Assembly: GCA_965214835.1 (NCBI GenBank)
Contig: CBDCCK010000002.1
Span: forward strand, 672,001 to 736,000
Source: Nitrosopumilaceae archaeon
GTDB taxonomy: Archaea > Thermoproteota > Nitrososphaeria > Nitrososphaerales > Nitrosopumilaceae
DNA: 64,000 nucleotides
Direction of reading: 5' to 3'
Under the pieces are notes generated by a model that worked only from the letters and a program-made list of their open reading frames with translations, made no database searches and had not been told where the DNA came from. Shown here piece by piece: positions 4,818-55,444 of the stretch; within the stretch, counting starts at the first letter, position 1; each line of letters starts with the position of its first letter. The position numbers and the translations under genes were made by a program.

Positions 4818-5570
4818 TCAAATCTCCACGTTTCCTGCCCTGTACCAGCCGTGATCCAGCCTGAAGTATTTGTCTTTGACTGACTGCCACCGTTCCTCGG
4901 ATCTTTTACCCGTAGTACTTCTTATCCATACCGCATATGCAAAAAAATCCGCAAGCTGTAATATTGGATGTTTCTTTGGATCGCCGTTTATGATGCGGCC
5001 GCTTATGCTGCTCAGTTCCTTGTGGTGCCTGAACCGTAGCACTTCGCGCAGTCCGGCCATGACGCGCTCTGCCTTCTTTCTTGCCTTCTTGTTGAGCCTT
5101 TCATAGACGGCCTCTCCCGTCCCGCCGTGTTCTTCAAGAAAGTCCTGGAACCTCTCCAGCATTATCAGCATCGCATAAGACTGCGGATCAGCCGGAATCG
5201 AATATCTCTTGCAGTGGTGTTTCAAATCTATCGTGACTGACAAAAGCACGCAATCGGATTCCCTGATCATGTCAAAAACGTCGTCTGCGAGCCGCCTTCT
5301 TTGCATGTCTGACAGCCTGTCATAAGGGTAACAACTGTTCCTCAACGGATGGTAGTGAAGCTTGAATCTTTCCGGTAGCTGTATGTCTTTGAAGTATTTG
5401 TCTATTGTAAGCCCGACTGCGTCGTCCAGCGCCTCCTTTTCATTGTCACTTGCGATGATTCCTGCCAGTGTGAAGAAGCGGGAACTGCCATCTATGACCT
5501 GGTAGTTCTCATCGAGATAATCTCCCAAGTCCCCGCTTTCATCAATATACAGGCGATACAACAACAGCAT
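4818..5570 (-). CDS. DUF3800-family protein
   Basis: N-terminal YIDESGD and C-terminal LQLADFFAY motifs. Confidence 0.8.
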   Translation of the reverse strand: MLLLYRLYIDESGDLGDYLDENYQVIDGSSRFFTLAGIIASDNEKEALDDAVGLTIDKYFKDIQLPERFKLHYHPLRNSCYPYDRLSDMQRRRLADDVFDMIRESDCVLLSVTIDLKHHCKRYSIPADPQSYAMLIMLERFQDFLEEHGGTGEAVYERLNKKARKKAERVMAGLREVLRFRHHKELSSISGRIINGDPKKHPILQLADFFAYAVWIRSTTGKRSEERWQSVKDKYFRLDHGWYRAGNVEI

Positions 5571-5639
5571 GTGGCTGTGCTGGGATATAAAATCTGGGGG
5601 CGTCTTAGCCTGTTGAACACATGATAAAAACGCCCCCGC

Positions 5640-5765
5640 CGTAGCCAGGGTGATGGATCAACCCCTCGTTATGCATGTGCTTCGCGCACTACCTGTTGAA
5701 TGGGGATATCCGAGCTGCTGTGTTCCTGTGCTACGCGCACTGATGGATGAATGCAGCTTCTGATC
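5640..5765 (+). ncRNA. Putative IS110 bridge RNA (target-binding and donor-binding loops)
   Basis: Two structurally parallel internal loops; GTTATGCA and CCTGTTG match the target, TGTGTTC and ATGGATG match the circle junction; transcript ends are estimates. Confidence 0.85.
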
Positions 5766-5802
5766 TGTCAAACCATATCCGAAAGGAGGTGAAAGAAAAG
5801 GA

Positions 5803-6878
5803 TTGAGAAGCATAGGAATAGACATTGGAAAGAGAAAATGCGGTGTGCGTCATCGACGCCAAGGGACACGTGCTAGAGGAGGGCTCGTATAACAACACGT
5901 ACAAGGAGGCATCAAAGCTTGCTGCACGACTGAAAAAAGAGTACAAAAAGTGCCAGGCCGCGTGCGAGTCAACGGGCAACATGTGGCTAAAGACGTTCAG
6001 GGCATTCGAGGATCAGCACATCCCCATACTGCTTGCAAACACCCTCAAGATGAAGATAGTATCAGAGACCAGCGTAAAGACTGACCCGATAGACGCAAGG
6101 AAGATAGCCGAAACGCTCAGGGCCGGAATGATACCACGATGCTACGTGGCATCAGCAGAGCTGAGGGATGTCAGGGAGCTGATGAGGTACAGGATACGGA
6201 TGGTGCAGGAGAGGACCGCAGTCATAAACGGGCTGCACAGCTTGGCTTGACAAGTACGACATAGCCATAGATGCATCCACGATGTACTCCAAGAAGGCCA
6301 TACGGAAGATCTCCGATACCAGGCTGAACATGCCAAACGATGACAGGATACTGGCAAGCTGCACCAGGAGGATTGCATCAGTTACAGAGGAGATAGGCCA
6401 GGCAGAGGAGGACATAGGAAGACAGGCAGGATCGAACGAGGATGCCAAGCTGCTGTTGAGCATGACGGGAATAGACGCCTTTGCAGCAATGCTGCTGATA
6501 GCAGAGATCGGTGACATAACCAGGTTTCCATCGCCGAACCAGCTTGTGTCCTGGGCCGGCATGTGTCCCCGGGTGTACCAGTCGGGGGACCGCGAGTACC
6601 ACGGCCGCATGAAAAAGGATGCAAACCGCAGGATCAACTGGCTGATGATCCAGATAGCCAACGTCGCCGTACAGCACGACGACAGGATGAAAGAGTTCTA
6701 CGAGAGGGTCCGCAAAAGGAACGGCAACAACCACGTCATAGCGATAACGCATGTTGCAAACAAGATGCTCAGGATAATCTGGCACATGCTGACGACAAAG
6801 ACTGCGTATTCATCGCGCAATGCTGCCCTGTACGACAAGAAGATCAAGAGGGTGACAGAACTGGCGGGAACGGCATAG
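5803..6878 (+). pseudogene. IS110 DEDD recombinase with two frameshifts (~5840 and ~6245)
   Basis: IGID, CEST, KTDPIDA and YQSG motifs; GGAGGTGA upstream; split across three frames. Confidence 0.88.
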
Positions 6879-7127
6879 GATTACCACCTTCCTCCCCCAC
6901 CCACCCACCCAATGATCCGCCCGCACCCTGGCAGGTGCGACAGGACTGGCTCGTGCGTATTGCTAGCGTTAGCTATAAAGCACAGCCCGGCCGACTAGGC
7001 ACGGATCAGAAGACGAAAGGAACGTTGCCATGTTACTGGCGGGCGTTTTACCATGGATGCATAACCGTGCCTGAACGCGTAAAAACAGCCAGTTTTTCGT
7101 GCCTAAAATCGGGGTTGTGCAACAGGC

Positions 7128-7739
7128 TACCCAGTACCACCGGGCACTCCTATGAAAAGATGGGACGTGGTGGAAATCCCATTGGAGAGAAATCCACAGG
7201 ATACTAGAAACGAAAGTTGGAAAATACAGGGGTCAAAATCAGAATGGGATAAACTACGATTCAAAATAACTGTTCATGAAACATTATCAAGATCAAAATG
7301 GATAGCGTTGTTAAATGACATGCACAAAAAATATGGCGTTGAGTGTATACAAGATCTAAACGATGAGAGATCAAGTCTGGGATTCATAAAGCCTCGTGAA
7401 TTCCAACAGCGTTTTGAAAAAAGAAAAAAACACGAACGTAATGTACAAACCACACTCTTTTCTCAGGAGCCATTTCTAACGATTCACAACTATGATGTAC
7501 AACCAAGAATGACCTATCGATGCTCTGGCTGCAAATCAAAAAATCCTCATGATCAGCAGATTTTGGAGTGGGGAGTTTACGAATGGATTAGAAAAAATCC
7601 CGACAAAATTGAGCAAGTATGGAAAAACCTACACATTGGCGAATCAGGGTACGATACAAGCTTCCTTGTGGGCAACATGTTTCTTCATCGCTCCTCCTTT
7701 ATGATAATCAGCATATTCCGGCACAAAATCGACATTTAG
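7128..7739 (+). pseudogene. 5'-truncated hypothetical protein of a type often found next to DUF488 genes
   Basis: Frame begins at YPVPPG directly at the MITE end; continues WDVVEIPLERNPQDTRNES and LEWG. Confidence 0.55.
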
Positions 7740-8144
7740 AAGATTCGGATTCCTAATGATCTCTTTTAACAGGTGCCTGTGACACGGTGTGCCTTCCGGT
7801 TCATAGCACAGCAAGGTTACGTGGGAATAGTTTGATTTGGCCTTCAATGATTTTATTAAATTGACACTGTTCTGATTTTCTTGCAATTCAAGTTTGAATG
7901 ATGGTATAAAATCCTCCCAATGGATTTGCTCGTTTTTGTATCTGCGTAACAGTTCTTGGCTGGGCGCAAGATCCCTCATCCACCTATCAAAATGGGTTTT
8001 TTTGACGCCTCTGGGGTAGTACCTCGTTATTAGGACTCTTAGGCCATCACCGTACTCCTTTGGTTTGTATATGCTCTTTGTCTTAATCACTTTGGATGCT
8101 TTCAATTTTATTGTAAGCCTCCAATAGTGAAAAATTTCCAGCAA
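7644..8144 (-). CDS. DUF488-family protein (YeaO-like); true start probably at VIKTKSIY
   Basis: DGLRVLITRYYPRGVKK, DLAPSQELL and TLLCYE..CHRHLL motifs. Confidence 0.85.
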   Translation of the reverse strand: MLEIFHYWRLTIKLKASKVIKTKSIYKPKEYGDGLRVLITRYYPRGVKKTHFDRWMRDLAPSQELLRRYKNEQIHWEDFIPSFKLELQENQNSVNLIKSLKAKSNYSHVTLLCYEPEGTPCHRHLLKEIIRNPNLLNVDFVPEYADYHKGGAMKKHVAHKEACIVP

Positions 8145-8205
8145 CAGCTAAAATTCTTCATCAAGTCTAGGCGGATTTGCCTCTTTTTAGCTTTTTCGGT
8201 CACTT

Positions 8206-8630
8206 GTACGAGGCCACCTATGTTTTGACGTGTTTTGACAACCTGTCTAACATACCACGATCATGCCGATCAAATACGATGCCTGCACGACATCAGCATT
8301 ATGAAAGGCCGCCGACCCACATACCGCAAGCTTGAGGCCACAATCGTGTCAGTCACAGACAGAATAAGCACGTTAGAAAGGAGCCTAAAGGCAACGAACA
8401 GAATGCTGGAGGAGAAAGACAAGACAATCGAGGAGCAGGGCAGGCAGCTCCGGTACTACGAGAACGAGAACTCACCGCCGTCTCCCGCAAGATAAGTGGG
8501 CAGATCAAGGGAGGGGAGCTCTGGATGAGGAGGTGGTCGTGGGTTATGACGTGCATACTGACGTGGAGGGCAAGGGGCAGATCCGTAGCAGACGAGGTCA
8601 TGAAACTGGTTTAGGAACGTGACCTCATAC
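8206..8630 (+). mobile_element. Internally deleted IS66 derivative (425 bp)
   Basis: Both TIRs retained; 5' part (KGRRPTYRKLE) joined directly to the 3' part (KISGQIKGGELW) of the element type at 30445-32110. Confidence 0.85.
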
Positions 8631-8639
8631 GATCTATGA

Positions 8640-9767
8640 ATGAATGCAAGAGAACAAAAAGCAAGACAAATCATGGAAACTCCCGGACACGCCACACAGA
8701 TCATCGGCACCGACAACTTTAGGGTCAGATCGCAGTCTGATCCCTCCAAGTTCTACACCGTTACAAGGACGGGCAACGGGTTAGTCTGCGAGTGTCCAGA
8801 CCACCGGAACAGGAGGGCAGACTGCAAGCACATCAAGGTAATACTGGAGCTTGTCCGAAAAAACGTGTTCGGACACGACGGGTTCAGGATCATGGAACGC
8901 TCCAAGCTCAAACTCTGCAAGTATTGTGATTCTGGCAGGATCGTGAGGCGGGGCAAGAGAAAGACCAAGAAGGGTGATGCCCAATTGTTCAAGTGCAACG
9001 ATTGCCAAAGGGCATTTACTGCAAACTTTGGTTTTGAGGGAAAGCAGTACGATGGCAGGATTATCACCGGAGCCCTACAGATGTACTATACGGGAATGTC
9101 GGTACGGGATATCGCGGATCATTACGAGATGATGGGAACCGACGTGTCGTTCAGGACCATATACAACTGGGTTGACGAGTATTCCCGGCTTGCGGCCAAG
9201 TACATCAATTGTATAGTTCCACGTGTTGGTAGTTGGTTCAGGGCAGACGAGGTATGGATCAAGATATCCGGAAAACAGTGCTATCTGTTTGCCTCAATGG
9301 ATGATGATACAAGATACTGGCTGGCCTCCGACCTTGCAGACAACAAGTTCCAGCACAATGCGGATTCATTGCTGGACATGACCAAGAAACAGGCCGGAAA
9401 GAATCCCCGAAACTTCATCACGGACGGCCTGCCAGCCTATGCCAAGTCCTCAAGGAAGGTATTCGGAAAGGGTACGAACCACGTGAAGCACATCCACCTA
9501 GCCGGAAAAAGAGACCGTGACAACAACAACAAGATGGAGAGGCTCAACGGCGAGATCAGGGACCGCGAGAAGGTGTTCCGTGGCCTCAAGAAGACCGACA
9601 CTGCAATCCTTGACGGCATGAGGGTCTACTACAACTATACGAAAAAGCACGGTGCACTGGACGGCCAGACCCCGGCGAAATCGGCCCTGATAAGCGTGGA
9701 CGGTACAAACAAGTGGAAGACGATAATCCAGAACGCCAGTTTGAGAAGGGATGTAAATCAGGTTTGA
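8640..9767 (+). CDS. IS6-family transposase with SWIM and zinc-ribbon N-terminus
   Basis: CECPD..CKH, CKYC..CNDC, RADEVW, ITDG and NNNKMERLN motifs; right TIR gattgcacagaacc at 9793-9806. Confidence 0.85.
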   Translation: MNAREQKARQIMETPGHATQIIGTDNFRVRSQSDPSKFYTVTRTGNGLVCECPDHRNRRADCKHIKVILELVRKNVFGHDGFRIMERSKLKLCKYCDSGRIVRRGKRKTKKGDAQLFKCNDCQRAFTANFGFEGKQYDGRIITGALQMYYTGMSVRDIADHYEMMGTDVSFRTIYNWVDEYSRLAAKYINCIVPRVGSWFRADEVWIKISGKQCYLFASMDDDTRYWLASDLADNKFQHNADSLLDMTKKQAGKNPRNFITDGLPAYAKSSRKVFGKGTNHVKHIHLAGKRDRDNNNKMERLNGEIRDREKVFRGLKKTDTAILDGMRVYYNYTKKHGALDGQTPAKSALISVDGTNKWKTIIQNASLRRDVNQV

Positions 9768-9956
9768 ATCGAGAGAAGTCTCATATCACGAAGATTGCAC
9801 AGAACCGGTCATAGCATACCTTATGTGCTAGATTGACGTAGCTATGCCATGAATACTGCCCCTGTCTGGAGATCAAGGATCTGCTCTGACTGCAAGCGAG
9901 TCCGCTGCCAGCCCGGATGCAACTGCGACTGTCACTGGCAGCGCTGGCGCTAGGAC

Positions 9957-10033
9957 TAGCCTGATACATGACCCTGATTTTGGGCACAAAAAATAGCTGT
10001 CTTGCGCGTTCAGGCACAGTTATGCAAGACTGC
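9957..10033. mobile_element. Degenerate second copy of the TAGCCTG MITE
   Basis: Reverse complement aligns with 7058-7129. Confidence 0.7.
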
Positions 10034-10078
10034 TGGGACTGCAAGCTTTATGAGTGCCTTGGAGTTCCCTCAATCCAT

Positions 10079-10607
10079 ATGAATTTCGTCCATGGAGTAA
10101 TAGCTGCAGTGGGACTGCTGGTGGCTGCCAACTTGGCCATGATTTCGGCTGACCTGGATGGCGGGGGCGCCGCCGATCATGCCAGGGAGCCTGCAGCACT
10201 TGACATGATGGCAGAGTCGGCGGGGATGCCGGCTCCCGTGGCCAAGGATATGCCTGGCGCAGCGGCGTCTGACGTTGTCGGAGAGCCCCCCACGTGAGGG
10301 GTACAGTCAGTTGTACAGCGAATCTGAAAGGATCCCCTATCTTGGCGTAACCTACCGCGAGCTCCGCGACATGGGATATTCTGAGCTGGAGGGCAGAATT
10401 AACGCAAATCTGACTCCATACTTTGACGGCATTGATTTTATGAGCCAGGGGGAGCTTGAGGGCCTTCGGGAGGCAGTAAAGGAGACCCGGAAACAGAAGT
10501 TTCGGTTTACCAACACGGATGACATTGAAAAGGTCAGGGTTCAGCTGGCCTTATCCAAGCTTGCACACCTGTTTAGGCTAGTGGACGACAGGGCAAAGAC
10601 AATCTAG
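10079..10607 (+). CDS. Secreted or membrane-anchored hypothetical protein, probably one gene split by a frameshift at the C-run near 10290
   Basis: Signal-like MNFVHGVIAAVGLLVAANL; overlapping ORFs 9968-10297 and 10275-10607. Confidence 0.45.
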
Positions 10608-10691
10608 TGACACATCTAATTCATGATGCCGTTTTAGTCTGATCTTAATGTCAACAGTTTCGATGTATGAGGCCATGTACCCCTGCTGGGC

Positions 10692-11788
10692 ATGAAAATC
10701 ACAGTTGCATGCAGATTCACGCCTAATTGCCAGGATTGGATGTCAGGACGGCCTAAATTTCTTGGCCTTCTGGATGCCATCATAAAAAACCTGGAAAGGC
10801 TCGGCGTTGAGTGCAAGAAGGTCGTCGTCTACAGGGGACGCATGGGGAACTTTATCCTGAGATTTCCAGTACTAGGAGCGAGGAAAAAAAGAGGCTTTGA
10901 GGAGATTCTCGACGAGTCCAAGCCGGATGCCGTAATACTGGACAACCCAAATGATCTGTGGATGGTTGCCGCCGGCAGAAAAATACCGGTGCTGGCGTAC
11001 TTTTGGGATCAGTGGATACACAGGAAAATATCAAGGGAGGACGGGGGATTCTTGACATCCTGTGTCTGGCGGTACGGGCACGCATTTGGGATCCCTGCCT
11101 GAAAAACGCAGATGCCATACTTGCCTAGACAGACTCCATAGCGGACACCATCAGGAAGCACTATCCAAAAAACAACACAGTGACGTTCCCGTATTCGAGC
11201 ATAGACACGAACAGCTGGAGGGGAGAGGGGCCCGGGGGCGCCATGGAGCTGAGGCACCCGTGCGTGGGCCTGCTACAGAACGCTGGCCGCTGATCCAAGA
11301 CAAGGGAGATGCTCATCCTGCCCAAGGTCGTCGAGGCGCCCCCACACGTAACATTCTACTGGGCCGGTGACGGGCGCTACCGCGACAGGATACTGGAGCC
11401 GCTGGCCGGATACGACAACTTTGAGTGACTGGGGCCGCTGGAGGGCCCCGACAGGATCATGGAGTACCTCTCCTCGATCTACGTCTACGGCCTAGTCAGC
11501 GGCATTGACATGTCGCCGTACTCGCTCAAGCAGGCCATGTCCATGGAGAAGCCTGCCATTGCAACGGATACCGGCGGCGTCTCAGAGACGATGCGGGACG
11601 GAACGACGGGGTTCCTGGTGGGTCTGGGGGACTACCGGGGGTGGACAGAGAAGACCACGATGCTACTGGGAGACGCAGAAAGGGCGCGGGACATGGGAAG
11701 CCAGGGACGCAGGTTCGTGCAGGACAGCTGGGACAGCAGCGTGGCCGCAGACAGGCTTGTTGCGATCCTTGGGGAAATCAAAAAGTGA
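10692..11788 (+). pseudogene. GT4-family glycosyltransferase pseudogene
   Basis: C-terminal SLKQAMSMEKPAIATDTGGVSE..DGTTGFLV motif; frameshifts and an in-frame stop upstream. Confidence 0.8.
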
Positions 11789-11932
11789 CATAGCCGGCGG
11801 GACGGAGCCATGATGGTCCCTGCAGGTCCTCGTGGAGGCGCTACGAGGGGGACGGCTAGATCAAGCTCCACCTTTGGGCTCTGGCCAGCCAGGATGCCAG
11901 CTTTCTGAACAAGTCGTACATGTCAAATTTTT

Positions 11933-12126
11933 GTATGATGCCACGTACCCTTGACAGTCAGTAGACTTTGCCAAAAATGACGCAAAAACTGCCTGATTTT
12001 TTTGATCCGTACAGGTTGCGCATAAAGTCTACTGACAACGATACTGATCCATGTACTATGGGCGCGTATGATGTCACCTGCCCTTAACCAGACAGGTACG
12101 AACTGGCGCGCAACTATGATTTTCAT
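11933..12126. mobile_element. Cluster of MITE fragments (IS66-type ends plus a ~70-bp IS5-type MITE at ~11962-12031)
   Basis: tagacttt...cgcataaagtcta matches the IS5 TIR and the insert at ~16027-16104; gtatgatgtcacc...gattttcatg is the IS66 MITE core. Confidence 0.6.
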
Positions 12127-12278
12127 GTATGGTACTGATTAGAAATTTTCAACAATAGAAGGCATTTCCCTGCGTAGTTCATGCCCATGTGTGTTGAGGA
12201 ACTTTTGCTTTACACAGCAAGCAAGGGGACGTGGCCCCATACAAAACATCAAATATAATACCATAAAATACGCTGATC

Positions 12279-13364
12279 GTGCAGATCATGCCAAGCCCCG
12301 TATCATTGAGGCACCGCCTTTTACGTAGAATAGAAAACAGGGCAAAGGATCTGCTGTTTGTTGATAGCCGATTGCACAACTATCAGATCAAATGTCCGGT
12401 CTGTAGCCGTTCAAGAAACGTTCAAAGAACTGACTTTTGGAGGTCTTTGAGGTACCCAAAGGCATCCACGTTTTTGATGCGGCACCGGTTCAACAGCATC
12501 ACGTCGTTCTTTCGTACCCTGCCGGATTTTCTCATAATAGGCATTGCCAAGTCGGGAACTACGTCGCTGTACGGCCTGATAAGCGCGCATCCACACGTGA
12601 TTCCCGCACAATCCAAGGAGGTGCACTATTTCACCGATTCGCGGAATTATGAGATGGGTACGCTGAGGTATCGTGCTAGGTTTCCAAGCGTGCCGTACAA
12701 GCGCTGTCTTGCCGTACGATACGGCCAAAAAATACTGTCCGGTGAGGCATCCTCCACCTATCTGTTCCATCCAATGGTGCCTAGTAGGGTCAAGGCCCTA
12801 CTTCCGGACGTTAGGCTGATCGTGATACTACGCAACCCCGTTGATCGAGCCTACTCTGAGTATCACATGCAGGTTAGAGAACGATGCGAGTCGCTGACAT
12901 TTGAGGATGCAATAAGGGCAGAAAAAGACAGGACGTCATACGAGATGGAAAGGGCAAGATCTGATCCGCGGTTTTACTGGAGCAACCTGCACCGCTACTC
13001 CTACCTTCAAAAAGGCCACTATGCAGAACAGCTGACTCACTGGTTCAGATACTACAACAAAGACCAGTTTCTCATCCTGACCCTGGAGGAGCTAAAGGTA
13101 GACCGGCGGGGAGTACTTGACAGGGTCTTTGAGTTTCTGGGACTAGAGCCGTTTGATGTGGGCAGCCTTGACCCCATGCCGAGCTATTCCTGGATAAAAC
13201 AGTTCATACACGAGCCCTCCGACGAGACTGACCGCGGGTTGCTAAATGCATACAGTTACCCCGAGATGAATCCCAAGACGCGTGCAATGCTGCTGGATTA
13301 CTTCAAGCCGCACAACGAACGGCTCTCCCGGCTCTTGCAGCGTGACTTTGACTGGAACGGCTGA
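12279..13364 (+). CDS. PAPS-dependent sulfotransferase; true start probably downstream of 12279
   Basis: LPDFLIIGIAKSGTTSLY (5'-PSB), KEVHYF and LRNPVDRAYS (3'-PB) motifs. Confidence 0.9.
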   Translation: MQIMPSPVSLRHRLLRRIENRAKDLLFVDSRLHNYQIKCPVCSRSRNVQRTDFWRSLRYPKASTFLMRHRFNSITSFFRTLPDFLIIGIAKSGTTSLYGLISAHPHVIPAQSKEVHYFTDSRNYEMGTLRYRARFPSVPYKRCLAVRYGQKILSGEASSTYLFHPMVPSRVKALLPDVRLIVILRNPVDRAYSEYHMQVRERCESLTFEDAIRAEKDRTSYEMERARSDPRFYWSNLHRYSYLQKGHYAEQLTHWFRYYNKDQFLILTLEELKVDRRGVLDRVFEFLGLEPFDVGSLDPMPSYSWIKQFIHEPSDETDRGLLNAYSYPEMNPKTRAMLLDYFKPHNERLSRLLQRDFDWNG

Positions 13365-13711
13365 CTTGCGACAGCCTTAGATGACCTGTGATCGGTAGCA
13401 CGGTGCCAGTACCACCATCCAGACTTGGAAACTTCCGATCGTATGAGGCAGTGTCTATCCTAGCCATTCGATCACTTGCATGCTGCCTACCGTAAGTTCT
13501 CAAATGACAAATTTTTCAGACCGAATCATATTTTGATCACCGTGTCTGACACAACGCATGACGGAGACGACATGGGAAGATCTGAAGAAGGCGTGCAAGG
13601 TGGAAAAGGATCCACATGTGATGGCCAAGATACCTGCAACAAACATGCTGTCCGAACCTCCAACGATGCATCACTGAGTTACTTCTGAACACGGGTTAAA
13701 ACGCCCGGGCC

Positions 13712-13825
13712 CGTAGCAGTGGTGACGTGGATCAACCGCTGTCTTCCCATGCGCCCCGCGCGCTGACTTCTGAATGCGGTAATTCCGAGCTGCAGTGTTC
13801 GTGCACCACGGCGTGCTGATAGATG
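13712..13825 (+). ncRNA. Second putative bridge RNA, 3'-truncated
   Basis: Same scaffold as 5640-5765 with guides GTCTTCCCA, ACTTCTG, GTGTTC and ATAGATG. Confidence 0.8.
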
Positions 13826-13840
13826 GTACGAGGTCACCTA

Positions 13841-14932
13841 TACTGATGATCATTGAAAATTTCGCCTGATTACACATCTTGTAAAGGTTTATAGCTCCCC
13901 ACCATGTCACTCCCGGCATGAACAAGACGAAAATCCTCACGGATGCCATGCATGTCGAAAAGGATCTCAAGATTCACACCAGAATCATGGCGGTGCGCTC
14001 CGTGCTGCTTGGCAACACCACCGCACAGACTGCAGAGATTGCCGACGTGACACAGCGTACCGTACAGATGTGGATCGAGAGATTCGAGCTTGACGGCATC
14101 GACGGCCTCCGTGACTCCTAACAGGGACAAAAAACCAAAGGTTCCGGTCGGCAGGATAAAAAAGATCGCCACAAAGTTGCGTAGGATGGAAAAGCTCACC
14201 CCGAAGAAGCTGTGCAACCGGGTGCGCCGCAGGCTGCATGTCACATACAGCGTGGGAAGCATCAGAAGAATCCTGCGCACGATGGGATTCTCGCCAAAGA
14301 CGTCAACCACCAGGCTTGCAGATGCTGCCGACGCAAAGGCGGTAAGACGGTGGCAGGGGGCGGCAAGAACCGCGATCAAGCTTGCAAAAAGGCGCGGATT
14401 TAGGATAGCCGTACAGGACGAGTCGATATTCGTCAGTACGGGAAGGGACGGCAGAAAGTTCTGGTCGCCCGTGGGGGACAGGATCGAGGTGCAACGATCC
14501 GGCAGAAGGGAACGCGTCGCGGTATACGGAACGATTGCAGACGACGGAACCCGGCTGATGCGCACATACGACAAGTTCAACAGCGCAAACTTTGTGCATT
14601 ATCTCAAGCAGGTGCACAAAAAGCGGGGAAAGGTTCTGATTGTGATGGACAACGCAGCACAGCACAAGACCGGAAAGGTCCGCAGGTACCTGAAGAAAAA
14701 TCCAGACGTCGTCCTGCTGTACCTGCCGGTAGCCAGGCCGGAGCTGAGCGTCATAGAGGCAGTCTGGAAGGATGCCAAGTACGGGCCGGTCACGTCGGCA
14801 TTTTACGAGACGGTAGATCACCTCAAAAGGGCCGTCTCGGAATACTTTAGGACGTGTTCCATCAAGGTTGACATCTATAGGTACCTTGAGCGCAGCTTGT
14901 AAGGGAGGCGAAATTTTCAATGGTCATCAGTA
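13841..14932 (+). mobile_element. IS630-family element, copy 1 (transposase split into 13918-14121 and 14090-14902)
   Basis: TIRs TACTGATGATCATTGAAAATTTCGCCT / AGGCGAAATTTTCAATGGTCATCAGTA; TA duplication within CCTAGG; QDES, DNAAQH and PELSVIE motifs. Confidence 0.9.
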
Positions 14933-15064
14933 TAGGCGTGGATCAGAGAGACACAATTTGCCACCGCTAAAGGGCCCGGGCGTTTTAACATAGATGGGAA
15001 GACTGGCCTAGGGTGGCAAACTTTTACAGATGAATTATAAGTATGTTTTTGAAAACATAGCCTG

Positions 15065-15430
15065 TTGAATCTCCAGCGGATCTATGTCTACGTGCGTCAG
15101 GGGTGGCATGTAATATCCCCGATATTTGGATTTAGCAACTTTATCATGCTGATCTATCTTACACTGACGTTTGAGGTTCCACTTTACGTGTTTGCGCCGT
15201 TGGTGACAGCTCCGATCCTGATAGGACTGGTCTTTACAGGCAAGTTATTCAGAGACAAACAGCAGCCAGTAGACGCGAGCATGAACTACTTCCGGTCACT
15301 GGAGGTACTGCGCAGTGAATCCATCCTATGGGAACAGATCGGCAGAATCTGCAAAAACGATGGAATACCCCTGAATGAGGAGTTTGTCAAGCGCCTTGAC
15401 GTGCTGAAAAAGGCGGTAAGGAAGAAATAA
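15065..15430 (+). CDS. Hypothetical membrane protein
   Basis: 121 aa with two hydrophobic segments; AT-rich TATA-like sequence upstream. Confidence 0.6.
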   Translation: MNLQRIYVYVRQGWHVISPIFGFSNFIMLIYLTLTFEVPLYVFAPLVTAPILIGLVFTGKLFRDKQQPVDASMNYFRSLEVLRSESILWEQIGRICKNDGIPLNEEFVKRLDVLKKAVRKK

Positions 15431-15597
15431 AACTCCCGTCAGAGGCCACTGTATGCGCTTGGGACTGTTGCCTAATTCACTTCCATCCCCCCACGCCGGC
15501 TCTTGCGGCGCATTCCAAGGTTCGGATGCCCCTTCTCTCCACATCGTTTCTGCCAGCAACGATGCCGATATTGTCGGTTGCAAGCTTGGTCGATGCG

Positions 15598-29746: not shown

Positions 29747-30056
29747 GTACGAGGCCAATGGTGATGAGCATGACGGGAATAGACGCCTTTGCTGCAATGA
29801 AGGTCCGCAGGTACCTGAAGAAAAATCCCGACGTTGTCCTGCTGTACCTGCCGGTAGCCAGGCCGGAGCTGAGCGCCATGGAGGCAGTCGAAGGATGCCA
29901 AGTACGGGCCGGTCACGTCGGCCTTTTATGACACGGTAGATCACCTCAAAAGGGCCGTCTCGGAATACTTTAGGACGTGCTCCATCAAGATTGACATCTA
30001 CAAGTATCTTGAGCGCAGCGTGTAAGGGAGGCGAAATTTTCAATGATCATCAGTAT
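29747..30056 (+). mobile_element. Chimeric remnant: IS66 end + IS110 fragment + IS630 3' end
   Basis: gtacgaggcca; gagcatgacgggaatagacgcctttgc (as at ~6458); IS630 C-terminus and TIR. Confidence 0.75.
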
Positions 30057-30243
30057 AGTCCCCGGTCTCCACCAGTATGCCGCGCTTCGACATCTTGAAC
30101 GTTATCTGATCCGGCTGTGACAACTCTTCTAGAATGGGCTTTGGTATTATTGCTATGCATCCCCTCCTTTCATCATGATTCAGCCGGACAGTGTATTGGG
30201 TCTCATCCTTTTTCCATCGTCCCATGGAACGAAACAGGAACAC
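30040..30243 (-). CDS. AbrB/SpoVT-like small DNA-binding protein; C-terminus clipped by the IS630 end
   Basis: CIAIIPKPILEEL..PDQITF....GILVE pattern. Confidence 0.7.
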   Translation of the reverse strand: MFLFRSMGRWKKDETQYTVRLNHDERRGCIAIIPKPILEELSQPDQITFKMSKRGILVETGDYTDDH

Positions 30244-45875: not shown

Positions 45876-48307
45876 CAGTAGTTGAAAATGTACCCCACAA
45901 ATCCCGCTAGCCGGGATCGTGCCGCCGTCCTGCTCTTGCCCGGCATGCATCCTGGGCACAAAAGGCCATTGCATAAACGGCCACCAGAGTCACCAGCGCC
46001 TGCAGCGTCATGCTGCGGATCCTGGGATCATCCGAATCCCTCATTGTCAGCCATATGTTGCATACTGCAAGCGATACGTAGAACAAAAACATCCGCAGTG
46101 CCGGGTTCTTGCTGGTGGTCCGCGGCCTGATGCTCTTGGCACAGCGGTATCCGGTCTCTATGCCCCACCTGTCCCGGTACTCCTCTGTCACATAGTCTAT
46201 CAGCTCCGCATAGCCGCGACAGCGCTGCGTGGTCGCAAACACGTGGTACCGATCAAAGATGTTCTTTGCCTTGGATTTGGGGATCTTCTTGATGACCAGC
46301 GTGAACGTGAACCTCTTGCCGTCAGATGATTCCAGTGTATACCTTGATACTGCCGGCCTCCTGCCGCGGGCATGCTGTACTATGGCCTTCTTTATCCCGG
46401 GCGTCTTGACTGCGGGCATGATGAACGCAAACCCCATCTGCGATATCACAGACATCACGGCCACCGAAAAGAACCCCCTGTCAAGCAGGACGACGCTGCG
46501 CCTTGACCAGAGCCTGGCCTTGATGCCCAGGGCGATGCATTTTCGGAGCATATCACGCACCAAATCGGCCTTTTCGTCGCCCCGCCTCGCCGGGCTACAG
46601 GCCGTATGCACGTCGGGGCCGGCCTTGGATGTCAGCTTGCACGTCATGTACTCCTAAGTTGACGGTGCCCCTGTCGTGCTTTGACTTTACCAGGTGCTTC
46701 ATGTCGGGGTTCTTGTCGTACCTGGGCATCTTGGTCTCGTCTATGGCAACGACTGCCGCCCTGCGGCTTCTTCGGAGGGCGCGCAGCTGTGTACTCACCG
46801 CCTCGACTGCCGTGCAGTGCAGCATCGCGTCGCATCTTTTCCTCATCGTGTACGGTTTCATGGATTTCAGCTTCCCGAGAAGCCAGGCCGAGGTGGGCAC
46901 CGCGACCTTGGCACCCTCCATCTTGAGGTACAGGCGGTTTTGAACGGTCTCGTTTGCACATTTGGAGTGCTCACACATGGCCACGACCAGGTGGGCGGCG
47001 TCGGCCAGGCCCCACATGGCGTTGTGCCTTGAGGAGAACTTGATCTGCAGCAGGCCCATTGCGGCGACCAGCAGCTTGAACTTGCTCTGTCCGTAGCTTG
47101 TCCGGTGTTTCTGTTTGCCCTGCTTGCCCATCAGGGTAGACTGGAACGGCGTTGTTTATAGATCGACTGGCCAAAAAATCATGTCAGTCAGTTCAAAACA
47201 ATTGTCTTATACAGAAATTAGGTCCGCCTAAGATAAGGCGTACGATCGCTGACTATTTCAGGCTGTACCGATCAGATAAAGACATGACAAGAAAGATGTC
47301 GGACAAAGAGATCAGGTATATCGTCAAGGGACGTAATGCCGGAAAGAGCGCCACGTCGCTGGCCCGTGACATGAAGGTGACGCCACGGCACGTGAGGAGG
47401 ATTTACGCCAGGTACCGCCGGACCGGAAAGATGCATGTGCAACAAAAGGCTGGAAGAAAGGCCGCACCGCAGCCCGCGGCAGGCCAGGTGCAGGCAGTCT
47501 TGGACATGCACTGTATAGAGCACGTGGGCGTGATGCGCACTGCCATGCGCCTGCAGGATGCAGGTCACATTATAAGCTACAACAGCGTATATCGGATAAT
47601 GAAGGAGCAAAGACTCGTTACTGCATCAGATACCAAGTCGGGCCAAAAGAAATGGCTGCGCTATGAGCGCAAGTACTCCAACGCAATGTGGCACGTGGAC
47701 TGGCACGAAATGAAGGATCCACGCCTGAGAGGGCTCAAATTAGTCACGTTTTTGGACGATTCCTCCCGGTGTGTCACGGCGGCACGGACGTTTGCAGATG
47801 CCACATCAGAAAACGTGGTGATAACACTCAGGGAGGCCATAGGCAGGTTTGGCAAGCCGGCCACCATACTGTCTGACAACGGCAGGTGCTTCAACGGCGG
47901 CCGCAGCAAGAAGAACATGCCACGCGGGACGTGGACGCCGACTGCCTTTGAGGCCGAGCTGCTGGATCGGGGCATCGGGCTGATAAACTCCAGGCCGTAC
48001 CATCCGGAGACCAACGGCAAGTTGGAACGGCTCCACGGCAGCATAGAGGCTGAGATCCGCCACTATGAGAGCTTGGATGCATACATCAAGTATTACAACG
48101 AGCGCAGGCTACACTTTGGGCTGGACATAGCCCACCGCCAGACACCCATCATGGCGTTCTCGGACAAAACTGCCACAGAAGCGATCAGGAAATCCGACCC
48201 AAAATGGATGGAGAGGGACATCAATGAATAGCGGACATTATTTCCATATAACACAGTCAGTTCAAAACAATCAGACACTTAAAAAGGGGGTACATTTTCA
48301 ACTACTG
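45876..48307 (-). mobile_element. ISH3-family element (transposase 45907-47131, frameshifted) carrying an IS481 insertion
   Basis: 21-bp perfect TIRs CAGTAGTTGAAAATGTACCCC; 5-bp TSD ATGAA. Confidence 0.92.
47203..48255 (+). mobile_element. IS481-family element, intact (transposase ~47284-48231)
   Basis: TGT...ACA ends; 16-bp direct repeat GTCAGTTCAAAACAAT. Confidence 0.92.
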
Positions 48308-48622
48308 ATGAACATAATCGGCAGAATTTTTTCTTTTATTTTAAGAAGCAGGCTACCTTCTATGACAAAAGGTCCGTTGATTAACATAGTAGATCATAAC
48401 CGGATAGAAAACGCTAATGATTTTTATCTTAAGGCTGATGTTGGCATCAACAGATATTTTGCTACGCTAATCTGTCCCAAATGTCAAGATATGATCCCCC
48501 TCACCTCCAATCATACGAAAATCATCGGCAGAGATGGCAAAATCACTTTAGATCCAAGTGTATTACATGAAGATTGTGGAGCCCATTTCTTCATCAAAGA
48601 TAACATAATCTATTTCGTCTAA
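48308..48622 (+). CDS. DUF6527-like metal-binding protein
   Basis: LICPKCQD...GKITLDPSVL..DCGAHFFIKDN pattern, recognised by eye. Confidence 0.7.
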   Translation: MNIIGRIFSFILRSRLPSMTKGPLINIVDHNRIENANDFYLKADVGINRYFATLICPKCQDMIPLTSNHTKIIGRDGKITLDPSVLHEDCGAHFFIKDNIIYFV

Positions 48623-53766: not shown

Positions 53767-54191
53767 ATGACAGCTAAGTGAAATGTAAACTGGATTGTTG
53801 CTTTTGTCTTGCTGCTGAGGCGTTGCGCCTCATGCCCAGTTTTTGTTTTTGCTCGATTTCATGGTACTTTTCACTTAGCTGAATGAAGGATAAGAATAAT
53901 GTGACAGATAAAACAAGGCGGCTTGTGACGCCAGACATCAGAAAGTGAAGCATACCCAATATCTGACGTTAAGATGGGCGCAGCCGCTACACGGTAAATA
54001 CCCTTTCAGTCCGGAGAAGATCCAGGTTTCATGTCCCGAAGATTGCACAGAACCCTATGACCGGTTCTGTGTAAAATTGGGGATGTGGGTCCCCTAAAAA
54101 ATCACTCCGTGGCTCTGTCGAGGCTGGCGTTCTGGATTATCGTCTTCCACTTGTTTATACCATCCACGCTTACCAAGGCCAATTCTGCCTA

Positions 54192-55382
54192 TACTGATGA
54201 TCATTGAAAATTTCGCCTCCCTTACACGCTGCGCTCAAGATACTTGTAGATGCCAATCTTGATGGAGCACGTCCTAAAGTATTCCGAGACGGCCCTTTTG
54301 AGGTGATCTACCGTGTCATAAAAGGCCGACGTGACCGGCCCGTACTTGGCATCCTTCCAGACTGCCTCCATGGCGCTCAGCTCCGGCCTGGCTACCGGCA
54401 GGTACAGCAGGACAACGTCGGGATTTTTCTTCAGGTACCTGCGGACCTTGCTGGTCTTGTGCTGTATTGCGTTGTCCATCACCATCAGGATCCTTCCCCA
54501 CTTTTTGCGTGCCTGTTCGAGATACTTTACAAAGTTTGCGCGTGTGTGGTCACGTCCCCTTGTTAGCTAGGCACGAAAATCACAATCATGCATCTAATTC
54601 GTGCCTGACTGATGGGGGTAGGTGACCTCGTACGTTTGCGCTGTTGAATTTGTCGTACGTGCGCATCAGCCTGGTTCCGTCGTCTACAATCGTTCCGTAT
54701 ACCACGACGCGCTCCCTTCTGCCGGATCGTTGCACCTCGATCCTGTCCCCCACGGGCGACCAGAACCTCTTGCCGTCCCTTCCCGCACTGGCGAACATCG
54801 ACTCGTCCTGTACGGTTATCCTAAATCCGCGCCTTTTTGCAAGCTTGATTGCAGCTTTTGCCTCCCTTTGCCACCGTCTTACCGCCTTTGCGTCGGCAGC
54901 ATCTGCCAGCCTAGTGGTTGACGTCTTTAGCGAGAATCCCATCGCGTGCAGGATTCTCCTGATGCTTCCCACGCTGTATGTGACGTGTAGCCTGCGGCGC
55001 ACCCAGTTGCACAGCTTCTTCGGAGTGAGCTTTTCCATCCTGCGCAGCCTCGTGGCGATCTTTTTTATCCTGCCGACTGGAACCTTTGGTTTTTTGTCCC
55101 TGTTAGGAGTCACGGAGGCCGTCGATGCCGTCAAGCTCAAACCTCTCGATCCACATCTGTACGGTACGCTGTGTCACGTCGGCAATCTCTGCGGTCTGTG
55201 CAGTGGTGTTGCCAAGCAGCACGGAGCGCACCGCCAGGATTCTGGTGTGAATCTTGAGATCCTTTTCGACATGCATGGCATTCGTGAGGATTTTCGTCTT
55301 GTTCATACCGGGAGTGACATAGTGGAGAGCTATAAACCTTACAAGATGTGTAATCAGGCGAAATTTTCAATGATCATCAGTA
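54192..55382 (-). mobile_element. IS630-family element, copy 2, disrupted by a MITE
   Basis: Same TIRs as 13841-14932; TA duplication within CCTAGG. Confidence 0.9.
54542..54633. mobile_element. 92-bp IS66-type MITE
   Basis: 8-bp TSD GTTTGCGC. Confidence 0.93.
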
Positions 55383-55444
55383 TAGGTACAGACTTTCAAC
55401 CTCGAGAAGATCCATGCCTCGAGTGGCTAAGATTACACAGAACC

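What the first reader, a model, noticed from the sequence alone, without database searches (positions are those of the whole stretch)
5614..14994. Two IS110 elements with one bridge-RNA scaffold reprogrammed to different targets
Seen: 5640-5760 and 13712-13825 share the scaffold ggatcaacc-[G1]-hairpin-[G2]-aatg.gg..tccgagctgc-[G3]-hairpin-[G4]. In element 1, G1 GTTATGCA (5668-5675) is the reverse complement of the right flank TGCATAAC, G2 CCTGTTG (5692-5698) equals left flank plus TG core, and G3 TGTGTTC and G4 ATGGATG match the circle junction ATGGA-TG-AACACA. In element 2, G1 GTCTTCCCA (13741-13749) is the reverse complement of the right flank TGGGAAGAC (9/9), G2 ACTTCTG equals left flank plus core, and G4 ATAGATG co-varies with its own right end ATAGA-TG. 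Known: this is the target-loop/donor-loop logic of IS110 bridge RNAs such as IS621. Inference: an archaeal RNA-guided recombinase lineage with a TG/CA core, compact parallel loops, a 5'-located RNA and IS1111-like sub-terminal repeats, showing natural guide reprogramming within one genome.
Basis: partly seen in the sequence, partly recalled or inferred. Interest (0 to 1): 0.9.

Follow-up and report, generated by a model that had tools for sequence, protein, structure and literature searches.

The report
Archaeal IS110 elements with reprogrammed bridge RNAs
Two mobile elements in an archaeal genome carry a small guide ("bridge") RNA gene whose loops match their own insertion sites, a real natural example of the RNA-guided recombination described in bacteria in 2024, although the second element is only a broken, non-autonomous remnant.

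Summary
The sequence matches are real and at the stated coordinates. Element 1 (window 5616-7057) is an IS110-family insertion sequence. It has a ~118-nt two-loop RNA gene (5652-5769) upstream of a transposase broken twice. Element 2 (13688-14994) holds no IS110 transposase. It is a 209-nt remnant (left end plus last 59 nt) with a 1,098-bp IS630-like element inside, and its RNA gene stops right after G4.

The guide logic holds well beyond these two copies. The fold is supported by compensatory changes in 22 of 28 pairs across 44 sequences. Among 58 distinct left-target guides from the window's genome, related genomes of its family and public archaeal assemblies, 38 match the cognate left junction at 6-7 of 7 positions. 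Non-cognate pairs do so in about 8% of cases (0 of 20,000 permutations as good). Right guides behave alike, with exceptions. In this genome the guides aim at the ends of other repeats.

The mechanism is the known bridge/seek-RNA one. The architecture is a hybrid: long sub-terminal repeats and IS1111-type guide order, but the RNA lies upstream of the transposase as in IS110. Relatives at 35% identity or more are nearly all archaeal.

It is a well-supported new variant of a known kind, of moderate interest.

The parts
5609..5615 (+). Left target half CCTGT plus core TG of element 1; it is the end of a small repeat whose other part follows the element.
5616..7057 (+). Element 1: IS110-family insertion sequence, 1,442 bp, guide class A.
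   Evidence: Ten further full-length family-1 copies in the genome.
5627..5640 (+). Left sub-terminal inverted repeat AAAACGCCCCCGCC, preceded by a 10-11 nt terminal extension (AACACATGAT, 5616-5625/6). The A/T-rich box ATGATAAAAA lies about 25 nt before the RNA stem; reading it as a promoter is inference.
   Evidence: Read. Its partner lies at 7038-7049. The repeat covaries in related genomes.
5652..5769 (+). Bridge RNA gene of element 1. Closing stem 5652-5660 with 5761-5769. Target loop: stem 5662-5665/5702-5705, G1 5668-5675, hairpin 5677-5689, G2 5692-5698. Donor loop: stem 5712-5718/5753-5759, G3 5719-5725, hairpin 5728-5740, G4 5743-5749.
   Evidence: Fold, pair counts, model score 146.4 bits.
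5803..6878 (+). IS110 transposase gene, broken twice: a 2-nt deletion behind 5842 that only some copies have, and an extra G at about 6244-45 shared by 10 of 11 family-1 copies. Open pieces are 5825-6250 (PF01548) and 6282-6878 (PF02371).
   Evidence: table 4.
6879..7057 (+). 3' non-coding region. It holds a conserved box CTAGCGTTAGCTATAAAG (6963-6980), the right sub-terminal repeat GGCGGGCGTTTT (7038-7049) and the terminal extension ACCATGGA.
   Evidence: The region is kept in the transposase-less derivatives.
7058..7135 (+). Core TG plus right target half CATAAC, and the rest of the ~85-bp inverted-repeat element that served as target. Its other end, TTGTGCAACAGGCTA, lies at about 7119-7133.
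13681..13687 (+). Left target half ACTTC plus core TG of element 2.
   Evidence: 71 uninterrupted sites of this target in the genome.
13688..13825 (+). Element 2 left end (family 2). Sub-terminal repeat GTTAAAACGCCCGGGCCC at 13695-13712. Bridge RNA gene from about 13726 with G1 13741-13749, G2 13766-13772, G3 13794-13800, G4 13819-13825. The gene ends here: the 3' strands of the donor-loop stem and of the closing stem are missing.
   Evidence: 69.5 bits against 114-120 bits for the three full-length family-2 RNAs.
13826..13837 (+). Twelve nt (GTACGAGGTCAC) foreign to family 2. The same motif follows a second left end that is cut right after G4 (C2:504218).
   Evidence: Origin unexplained.
13838..14935 (+). 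IS630-like element (HTH plus DDE_3, own terminal inverted repeats) inserted inside element 2.
14936..14994 (+). Element 2 right end: the last 59 nt of family 2, with sub-terminal repeat GGGCCCGGGCGTTTTAAC (14972-14989, a perfect 18-bp partner of 13695-13712) and terminus ATAGA.
14995..15003 (+). Core TG plus right target half GGAAGAC of element 2.

Best explanation
These are members of an archaeal clade of IS110-family, RNA-guided (bridge/seek-RNA) insertion sequences. The clade is centred on Nitrosopumilaceae.

A ~118-nt RNA is encoded in the left end, on the transposase strand. It folds into two internal-loop stem-loops closed by a common stem.
[quoted passage not shown] - The second loop reads the junction of the element's own right and left ends in the same way.

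A DEDD/serine recombinase then exchanges strands at the TG core between a circular form of the element and the target.

Guide changes retarget the element. In this genome the different guide sets aim at the termini of other repeats. Element 1 is a class-A copy with a broken transposase. Element 2 is a 209-nt non-autonomous family-2 remnant with a truncated RNA gene that carries an IS630-like element.

Shown here: the complementarities, their covariation, the covariation of the fold, and the family of the protein. Inferred: transcription, RNA-protein complex, circular intermediate, and the chemistry.
For: (1) Exact matches at the stated coordinates.

(2) Protein. PF01548 plus PF02371. The intact sister copy P0001 (378 aa) scores 234 bits on NF033542 'IS110 family RNA-guided transposase', cut-off 140. 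It matches the solved bridge recombinases ISCro4 (4e-9) and IS621 (9e-9), with the IGIDIGK, TDPIDARK and YQSGD motifs aligned. D26, E75, D114, D117 and S280 are invariant in a four-lineage alignment.

(3) Fold.
- 16 sequences: 95.8% of cells paired, 6 pairs with compensatory change.
- 44 sequences: 95.2% paired, 22 of 28 pairs compensatory, 0 of 500 shuffles as good; slid partners pair at only 33-45%.
- Many G-U pairs (for example 36 GU at one pair and 18 UG at another) fit only the transposase strand.

(4) Within this genome.
- Class A: all 8 full copies carry right flank TGCATAAC. The left flank matches at 5 of 5 in 5 copies, 4 of 5 in 2 and 3 of 5 in 1.
- Class B: guides CATTTTCA and GTAGTTG sit in GTAGT|TG|AAAATG (C2:514647).
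- Element 1 against class B differs at 9 of 15 target-guide columns and at 2 of 103 others.

(5) Across genomes.
- Left side: 58 distinct guides. Cognate matches were 7/7 in 20, 6/7 in 18, 5/7 in 14 and 4 or fewer in 6. Non-cognate pairs reached 7/7 in 0.42% and 6/7 in 7.7% of 3,306 pairs. Permutations as good: 0 of 20,000.
- Right side: 28 distinct guides. Cognate mean 4.21 of 6 against 1.59; 15 of 28 at 5/6 or better against 1.7% of 756 non-cognate pairs. Permutations as good: 0 of 20,000.
- Donor guide G3 against the left terminus: 35 distinct guides, mean 4.71 against 3.96, 0 of 20,000.

(6) The RNA model hits directly upstream of the transposase, on the same strand, in 58 matches over 69 loci. 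There were no hits in the 11 bacterial loci given. It was found in 27 of 151 genomes and 11 of 27 genera of the family. That tally includes the unpublished G094; without it, 26 of 150.

(7) Uninterrupted target sites are abundant repeat ends: 16, 23 and 71 sites for the three guide sets.
Against: - No expression data. No RNA run was listed for this organism, so transcription and the ends of the RNA are inferred.
- Right-flank agreement is imperfect. 10 of 40 distinct guide/site rows match at 3 of 6 or fewer. These include C2:1519219, 639991, 2665851 and 3124520 in this genome. One class-A-like copy (C2:1835893) has guide TTTGT in flank CCTGT.
- Only 1 of 11 family-1 copies and 0 of 3 family-2 copies have an uninterrupted transposase ORF, so the system may be largely inactive here.
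- The right end could be located in only 51 of 102 rows. The right-side test therefore rests on the better preserved elements.
- The alignments used for the larger pair count were fitted to the model.
- The related genomes are kin, so the permutation figures overstate independence.
- Rfam holds no matching family, so membership of a curated RNA family could not be tested.
Confidence: 0.88

Rival explanations
1. One reading: two autonomous IS110 elements, each with a transposase (merely frameshifted) and a working bridge RNA.
For: Both have matching ends, sub-terminal repeats and guide/flank matches.
Against: - Element 2 contains no IS110 transposase sequence. Its ORFs are HTH plus DDE_3 of an IS630-like element with 18 genomic copies longer than 1,000 bp.
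- Homology to full-length family-2 copies covers only 138-140 nt on the left and 60 nt on the right.
- The RNA gene lacks its 3' stem strands and scores 69.5 bits against 114-120.
Confidence: 0.03
2. Target choice is made by the protein (or by DNA-DNA contacts), and the internal matches to flanks are DNA-level features such as copies of recombination sites. No guide RNA is involved.
For: No transcript has been shown. All targets are repeated sequences, which a site-specific protein could also recognise. DNA encoding G4 is identical to the right end plus core, and two left ends are cut exactly there.
Against: - Strand-specific G-U pairs and 22 of 28 compensatory pairs point to a folded RNA.
- In one related genome (G004) the guide's core positions can meet the TG core only through G-T/U-G wobble.
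- More than 50 guide variants accompany nearly constant protein-binding scaffolds.
- The protein is homologous to recombinases solved with their bridge RNA.
- Experiments on IS621, ISEc11 and ISEc21 show that the RNA is essential (passages read).
Confidence: 0.04
3. The guide logic is real, but in this genome the system is a fossil. Copies spread in the past, and today both families are immobile because their transposases are broken.
For: 10 of 11 family-1 copies share a frameshift. All three family-2 copies are broken. Several left ends are truncated or decayed. No empty-site or circle joint appeared in the contigs of four runs (weak evidence).
Against: - Class-A copies are 97.6-98.4% identical over full length, with identical RNA genes in several, which suggests recent spread.
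- One copy (C2:513380-514516) is intact.
- Between two frameshifted copies about 7% apart, both halves stay open, and synonymous and non-synonymous codon differences are about equal: 34 against 40. That is fewer non-synonymous changes than neutral decay would give.
Confidence: 0.3

Closest known systems
IS621 and other IS110-group bridge-RNA elements (Durrant et al. 2024, PMC11208160; passages read)
   Same: - DEDD plus Tnp-domain recombinase.
- RNA gene in the left end, upstream of the transposase.
- Two internal loops, one for the target and one for the donor junction.
- Both strands of each loop include the core dinucleotide.
- Guides are reprogrammable.
   Different: - The layout is mirrored. 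[quoted passage not shown] - The sub-terminal repeats are 12-18 bp rather than 2-3 bp.
- The core is TG. My memory that the IS621 core is CT comes from no call.
- The RNA is shorter (~118 nt; 177 nt for IS621 is recalled), and both loops are closed by one common stem.
- Protein similarity is distant (E about 1e-8).
IS1111-family seekRNA elements: ISEc11, ISKpn4, ISPa11 (Siddiquee et al. 2024, PMC11187229; passages read)
   Same: - Sub-terminal inverted repeats of 11-13 bp.
- The top-strand complement lies 5' of the bottom-strand match.
- Targets are repeated sequences.
- Natural reprogramming between close relatives.
   Different: - The RNA gene is upstream, not downstream, of the transposase.
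- The terminal extensions are about 10 and 8 nt, not 7 and 3.
- Long non-coding regions lie on both sides (about 190 and 180 nt).
- The paper names exceptions without describing their RNAs: ISMtsp17 has the non-coding region upstream, and ISHvo10 and ISAcp5 have one on both sides. I could not compare sequences with them.
[quoted passage not shown]
   Same: The insertion site is the terminal inverted repeat of another mobile element.
   Different: The hosts here are archaea. The targeted elements differ: an ~85-bp inverted-repeat element, a ~1.36-kb repeat with a weak DDE_Tnp_1 match, and a further repeat family.
ISPpu9 and its ssr9 small-RNA module in Pseudomonas putida (PMC12288879; abstract read)
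   Same: An IS110-family element of which RNA-bearing modules without a transposase are scattered in the genome and presumably use the transposase in trans.
   Different: In ISPpu9 the RNA lies downstream and was not required for transposition. Here the transposase-less derivatives (~367-371 bp) keep the bridge RNA gene, both non-coding regions and their own matching donor guide.

Membership tests
IS110 family in the wide sense (DEDD bridge/seek-RNA recombinases) | Transposase with DEDD_Tnp_IS110 (PF01548) followed by Transposase_20 (PF02371) | tested here: met
   83.4 and 95.1 bits on the two pieces of element 1. NF033542, 234 bits against cut-off 140, on the intact sister copy.
IS110 family in the wide sense (DEDD bridge/seek-RNA recombinases) | Catalytic D-E-D-D and serine conserved | tested here: met
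   Motifs align with ISCro4. D26, E75, D114, D117 and S280 are invariant in alignment A3. That these are the catalytic residues is recalled from the IS621 literature, not tested.
IS110 family in the wide sense (DEDD bridge/seek-RNA recombinases) | Structured non-coding RNA in a non-coding end, with loop strands complementary to target and to donor junction, covarying with them | tested here: met
IS110 family in the wide sense (DEDD bridge/seek-RNA recombinases) | RNA transcribed and bound by the transposase; circular intermediate | not testable with these tools
   No RNA run listed. Contigs of four runs show no joint.
IS110 group (IS621-like) | Bridge RNA in the left end, upstream of the transposase | tested here: met
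IS110 group (IS621-like) | Sub-terminal repeats absent or 2-3 bp | tested here: not met
   12-18 bp repeats that covary between lineages.
IS110 group (IS621-like) | [quoted passage not shown] | tested here: not met
   The opposite order holds in all four guides (against the passages).
IS1111 group | Sub-terminal inverted repeats of 7-17 bp | tested here: met
   Element 1: 12/14 nt. Element 2: 18 bp, perfect.
IS1111 group | The top-strand complement lies 5' of the bottom-strand match in the RNA | tested here: met
   G1 lies before G2 and G3 before G4 (definition).
IS1111 group | Guide RNA encoded downstream of the transposase | tested here: not met
   The RNA model hits only upstream of the transposase. 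A 180-nt downstream non-coding region exists, but it has no match to the model.
IS1111 group | Terminal extensions of 7 bp (left) and 3 bp (right) beyond the repeats | tested here: not met
   About 10 and 8 nt, not counting the core (definition).
IS630 family (the insert in element 2) | HTH plus DDE_3 transposase and terminal inverted repeats; multi-copy | tested here: met

The most novel reading that the evidence does not exclude
A Nitrososphaerota-centred clade descends from IS1111-like ancestors, and its bridge RNA gene has moved to the 5' side. The RNA plus the two ends has become a self-sufficient targeting module. Transposase-less elements of about 370 bp carry their own target and donor guides and programme their own insertion into the ends of rival mobile elements, using a transposase supplied in trans. 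In most copies that transposase is made only through +1 recoding at GCU UGA C.
Probability: 0.25. Interest if true: 0.55.

Novelty: new variant of a known kind. Interest (0 to 1): 0.4.

Why it matters
The locus gives a clean natural example of bridge-RNA retargeting in archaea. Nearly identical scaffolds carry swapped guides within one genome, and dozens of guide variants occur in related genomes. It also shows that the features used to separate the IS110 and IS1111 groups (RNA position, guide order, length of the sub-terminal repeats) can be recombined.

For engineering, it offers a compact ~118-nt RNA and a ~378-aa recombinase from mesophilic archaea as a possible further orthologue.

For genome biology, it shows RNA-guided elements that use the ends of other mobile elements as landing sites in IS-rich Nitrosopumilaceae genomes.

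It does not change the known mechanism.

Tried and rejected
- Rfam. No family matched 5000-15500 at E up to 1. The whole window gave only a tRNA.
- Single-sequence folding was not significant. The z-score was -1.56 for element 1 and 0.07 for element 2. The fold rests on covariation instead.
- Expression. No RNA holder was listed.
- Laying contigs of the four listed runs on 5300-7400 gave no joint, neither an empty site nor a circle. It showed only loose ends from other copies and from uninterrupted target sites.
- The first genome-contig scan, with one protein, found nothing. The second, with an alignment, worked.
- I considered that the RNA might be read from the opposite strand. I rejected this because the many G-U pairs would become A-C mismatches, and because no orientation of the reverse strand gives a known guide layout.
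- I considered that GTACGAGGTCAC after G4 belongs to the IS630-like element. I rejected this because homology among the 18 copies starts at 13838.
- Automated location of the right end failed for 51 of 102 rows. These include most elements of one genus (g18), whose right ends were not found within 1,500 nt. Those rows were left out of the right-side test.
- The comparison of frameshifted copies with the intact copy was out of register by one codon and is not used.
- Placement of the transposase among named IS1111/IS110 references (ISHvo10, ISAcp5, ISMtsp17) could not be done, because no such sequences were at hand.
Durrant's supplementary tables, and the cluster lists of the 2026 preprint 10.64898/2026.10.21.760802 (passages read), may already hold this lineage.
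- Literature searches for an earlier description found none: 'bridge RNA'+IS110+archaea, seekRNA+IS1111, 'bridge RNA'/MITE/non-autonomous, and IS110+Nitrosopumil. The library is incomplete.

Full report
**What is in the window**

Element 1 runs from 5616 to 7057, with TG on both sides (5614-15 and 7058-59). Its two open pieces, 5825-6250 and 6282-6878, match DEDD_Tnp_IS110 and Transposase_20.
- G1 (5668-5675) is the reverse complement of TG+CATAAC on the right.
- G2 (5692-5698) equals CCTGT+TG on the left.
- G3 and G4 match the junction that the two ends would form in a circle.

Element 2 runs from 13688 to 14994 and shows the same logic, including a 9 of 9 match of G1 to the right flank. It is not a second IS110, however.
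- Its ORFs are HTH plus DDE_3. They belong to an IS630-like element (13838-14935) with 18 copies longer than 1,000 bp in the genome.
- What remains of the IS110-type element is 138 nt of left end, 12 foreign nt and 59 nt of right end.
- Full-length members of this second family sit at C2:2665851, 2137437 and 1315096.
- Compared with them, element 2 loses homology immediately after G4+TG. The 3' strands of the donor-loop stem and of the closing stem are therefore absent.
- The RNA model scores it at 69.5 bits, against 114-120 bits for the intact family-2 genes.

**The RNA**

The element-1 sequence folds into a closing stem (5652-5660 with 5761-5769) around two stem-loops. Each stem-loop has a large internal loop and a short terminal hairpin, and G1/G2 and G3/G4 are the loop strands. 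Single-sequence energies are not significant, but covariation is strong.
- In 16 sequences from three genomes, 95.8% of cells pair and 6 pairs show compensatory change.
- In 44 sequences, 95.2% pair and 22 of 28 pairs show compensatory change. No shuffle of 500 reached this, and slid partners pair at 33-45%. This alignment was fitted to the model.
- Frequent G-U pairs fit only the strand of the transposase.
- Rfam has no matching family.

**Do guides track flanks?**

The genome (3.22 Mb, two contigs) holds 30 left ends and 29 right ends of these elements.
- Class A, which includes element 1, has 8 full-length copies. All 8 have right flank TGCATAAC. The left flank matches G2 at 5 of 5 in five copies, 4 of 5 in two and 3 of 5 in one.
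- Class B has guides CATTTTCA and GTAGTTG, and C2:514647 sits in GTAGT|TG|AAAATG.
- Element 1 and this class-B copy differ at 9 of 15 target-guide columns but at only 2 of 103 other RNA columns. This is the clearest reprogramming event.
- Further guide sets occur in transposase-less derivatives.

I then built a covariance model. It found the RNA in 27 of 151 genomes and 11 of 27 genera of the host's family. The model also hit directly upstream of the transposase in 58 matches over 69 public loci.

The test that does not depend on calling element boundaries asked for the best match of each G2 7-mer in a 40-nt window upstream of the RNA. It gave the following for 58 distinct guides.
- Cognate pairs: 7/7 in 20, 6/7 in 18, 5/7 in 14, and 4 or fewer in 6.
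- Non-cognate pairs: 7/7 in 0.42% and 6/7 in 7.7%.
- Permutations as good as observed: 0 of 20,000.

For the right side, the element end was located from G4 and the sub-terminal repeat, independently of G1. This succeeded in 51 of 102 rows.
- Of 40 distinct guide/site rows, 8 match 6/6, 12 match 5/6, 10 match 4/6 and 10 match 3/6 or fewer.
- Over 28 distinct guides the cognate mean is 4.21 of 6, against 1.59 for non-cognate pairs (0 of 20,000 permutations).
- G3 also tracks the left terminus (0 of 20,000).

**Results against the reading**

- A quarter of right flanks do not match. In this genome these include C2:1519219, 639991, 2665851 and 3124520.
- Several of these mismatching flanks share one repeat (CGCCTAATTCGCC...). 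The affected elements look chimeric, so recombination between copies is a plausible cause, but it is unproven.
- The genomes compared are kin, so the permutation figures overstate independence.

**Targets**

The three main guide sets aim at repeated sequences.
- C[CT]TGTTGCATAAC has 16 uninterrupted sites. It is the end of an ~85-bp inverted-repeat element and of other repeats sharing that end.
- GTAGTTGAAAATG has 23 sites, often in inverted pairs 1,363 bp apart. They are the two ends of another element, whose ORF gives a weak DDE_Tnp_1 match below Pfam's cut-off.
- ACTT[CT]TGGGAA[GA]AC has 71 sites at the end of a further repeat family.

**Protein and host**

- The intact sister copy (P0001, 378 aa) scores 234 bits on NF033542 'IS110 family RNA-guided transposase'.
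- It matches ISCro4 and IS621 at about 1e-8, with the catalytic motifs aligned.
- The host's SSU rRNA fits the archaeal model better than the bacterial one: 1452.6 against 1089.2 bits.
- Relatives at 35% identity or more are Nitrosopumilus, Cenarchaeum, other Nitrososphaerota, Bathyarchaeota and Methanosarcinales records, plus one MAG labelled Kaiserbacteria.
- Bacterial hits are at 23-29% identity and have no match to the RNA model.

**Comparison with what is known**

- Durrant et al. [quoted passage not shown] They also state that IS110-group elements have the RNA in the left end with 2-3-bp sub-terminal repeats, and IS1111-group elements have it in the right end with 7-17-bp repeats.
- Siddiquee et al. 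2024 (passages read) state that IS1111 seekRNAs have the top-strand complement 5' of the bottom-strand match, and IS110 the reverse. They give repeats of 11-13 bp with extensions of 7 and 3 bp. They note a few exceptions in the position of the non-coding region: ISMtsp17, ISHvo10 and ISAcp5.
- The elements here have the IS1111 order and long repeats (18 bp and perfect in element 2). However, the RNA is upstream, the extensions are about 10 and 8 nt, and long non-coding regions lie on both sides. They therefore fail one or more defining features of each subgroup while clearly belonging to the wider family.
- Large surveys of IS110-adjacent RNAs exist. Archaeal IS110 recombinases are catalogued (662 homologues). 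I found no description of this RNA in four literature searches. The supplements, which I could not open, may list it.

**Verdict**

The mechanism is the known one. The architecture is a hybrid variant in an archaeal clade. Interest is moderate.

Noticed in passing
window 6240-6250; same site in C2:1098261, 1835893, 1942410, 2128809, 2178172, 2580232, 2951779, 1519219, 1302397: Ten of 11 family-1 copies share one extra G. It puts a TGA in frame (AGC TTG GCT TGA C, against AGC CTG CTT GAC in the one intact copy). Both halves stay open in copies about 7% apart, and synonymous and non-synonymous codon differences are about equal (34 against 40). This may be a programmed +1 shift at GCU UGA C, or mobilisation in trans by the intact copy.
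   Followed up: partly
G000 C2:639991-640361, 2139579-2139945, 2955618-2955986, 3124156-3124520 (also left ends at 10110, 655670, 2928844): There are transposase-less derivatives of about 367-371 bp. They keep the left end with an intact bridge RNA gene (106-147 bits) and the whole 3' non-coding region. In two of them the donor guide G4 matches or nearly matches their own right end ATAGA (ATAGATG at C2:2955986, GTAGATG at C2:2139579), which differs from the full-length elements (ATGGA).
   Followed up: partly
window 6963-6980: A conserved box CTAGCGTTAGCTATAAAG lies about 80-95 nt from the right end. It is shared by most of 12 diverse elements aligned and looks like an archaeal BRE/TATA element. 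If it points outward, it would read across the circle junction into the RNA gene. Untested.
   Followed up: no
window 13826-13837 and G000 C2:504218 (minus strand): Two left ends are cut exactly after G4+TG, that is, at DNA identical to a right end plus core. Both are followed by the same foreign motif GTACGAG... This suggests recombination at the pseudo-site encoded by the donor guide. The origin of the motif is unresolved.
   Followed up: partly
L029 and L051 (genome G010): Two copies lack the first 8 nt of the left end (AACACATG). G2 (TTCATTTG) matches the sequence that abuts the shortened end. This looks like a deletion between the two TGs of TG-AACACA-TG. The two loci share flanks, so they may be one duplicated segment.
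   Followed up: no
window 45878-48311: An element is bounded by inverted CAGTAGTTGAAAATGTACCCC ends, which are the class-B target. Here it is 2.4 kb instead of the usual 1.36 kb. It holds a weak DDE_Tnp_1 ORF and a second ORF with an rve integrase domain, so it is probably a nested insertion.
   Followed up: partly
window 13838-14935 and 17 other places in G000: The IS630-like element (HTH plus DDE_3 in two overlapping frames around an A-run, GGGACAAAAAACC) has 18 copies longer than 1,000 bp at 89-100% identity. Further fragments lie in the window at about 29800-30058 and 54187-55387.
   Followed up: partly
right flanks of C2:1517779, 640361, 635702, 3124156, and downstream of C2:10110 and 2928844: Most elements whose right flank does not match G1 abut the same repeat (..CGCCTAATTCGCCAGAATTCC..). 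This repeat resembles the target of yet another guide class (G1 TACGCGACA). It points to chimeras formed between copies.
   Followed up: no
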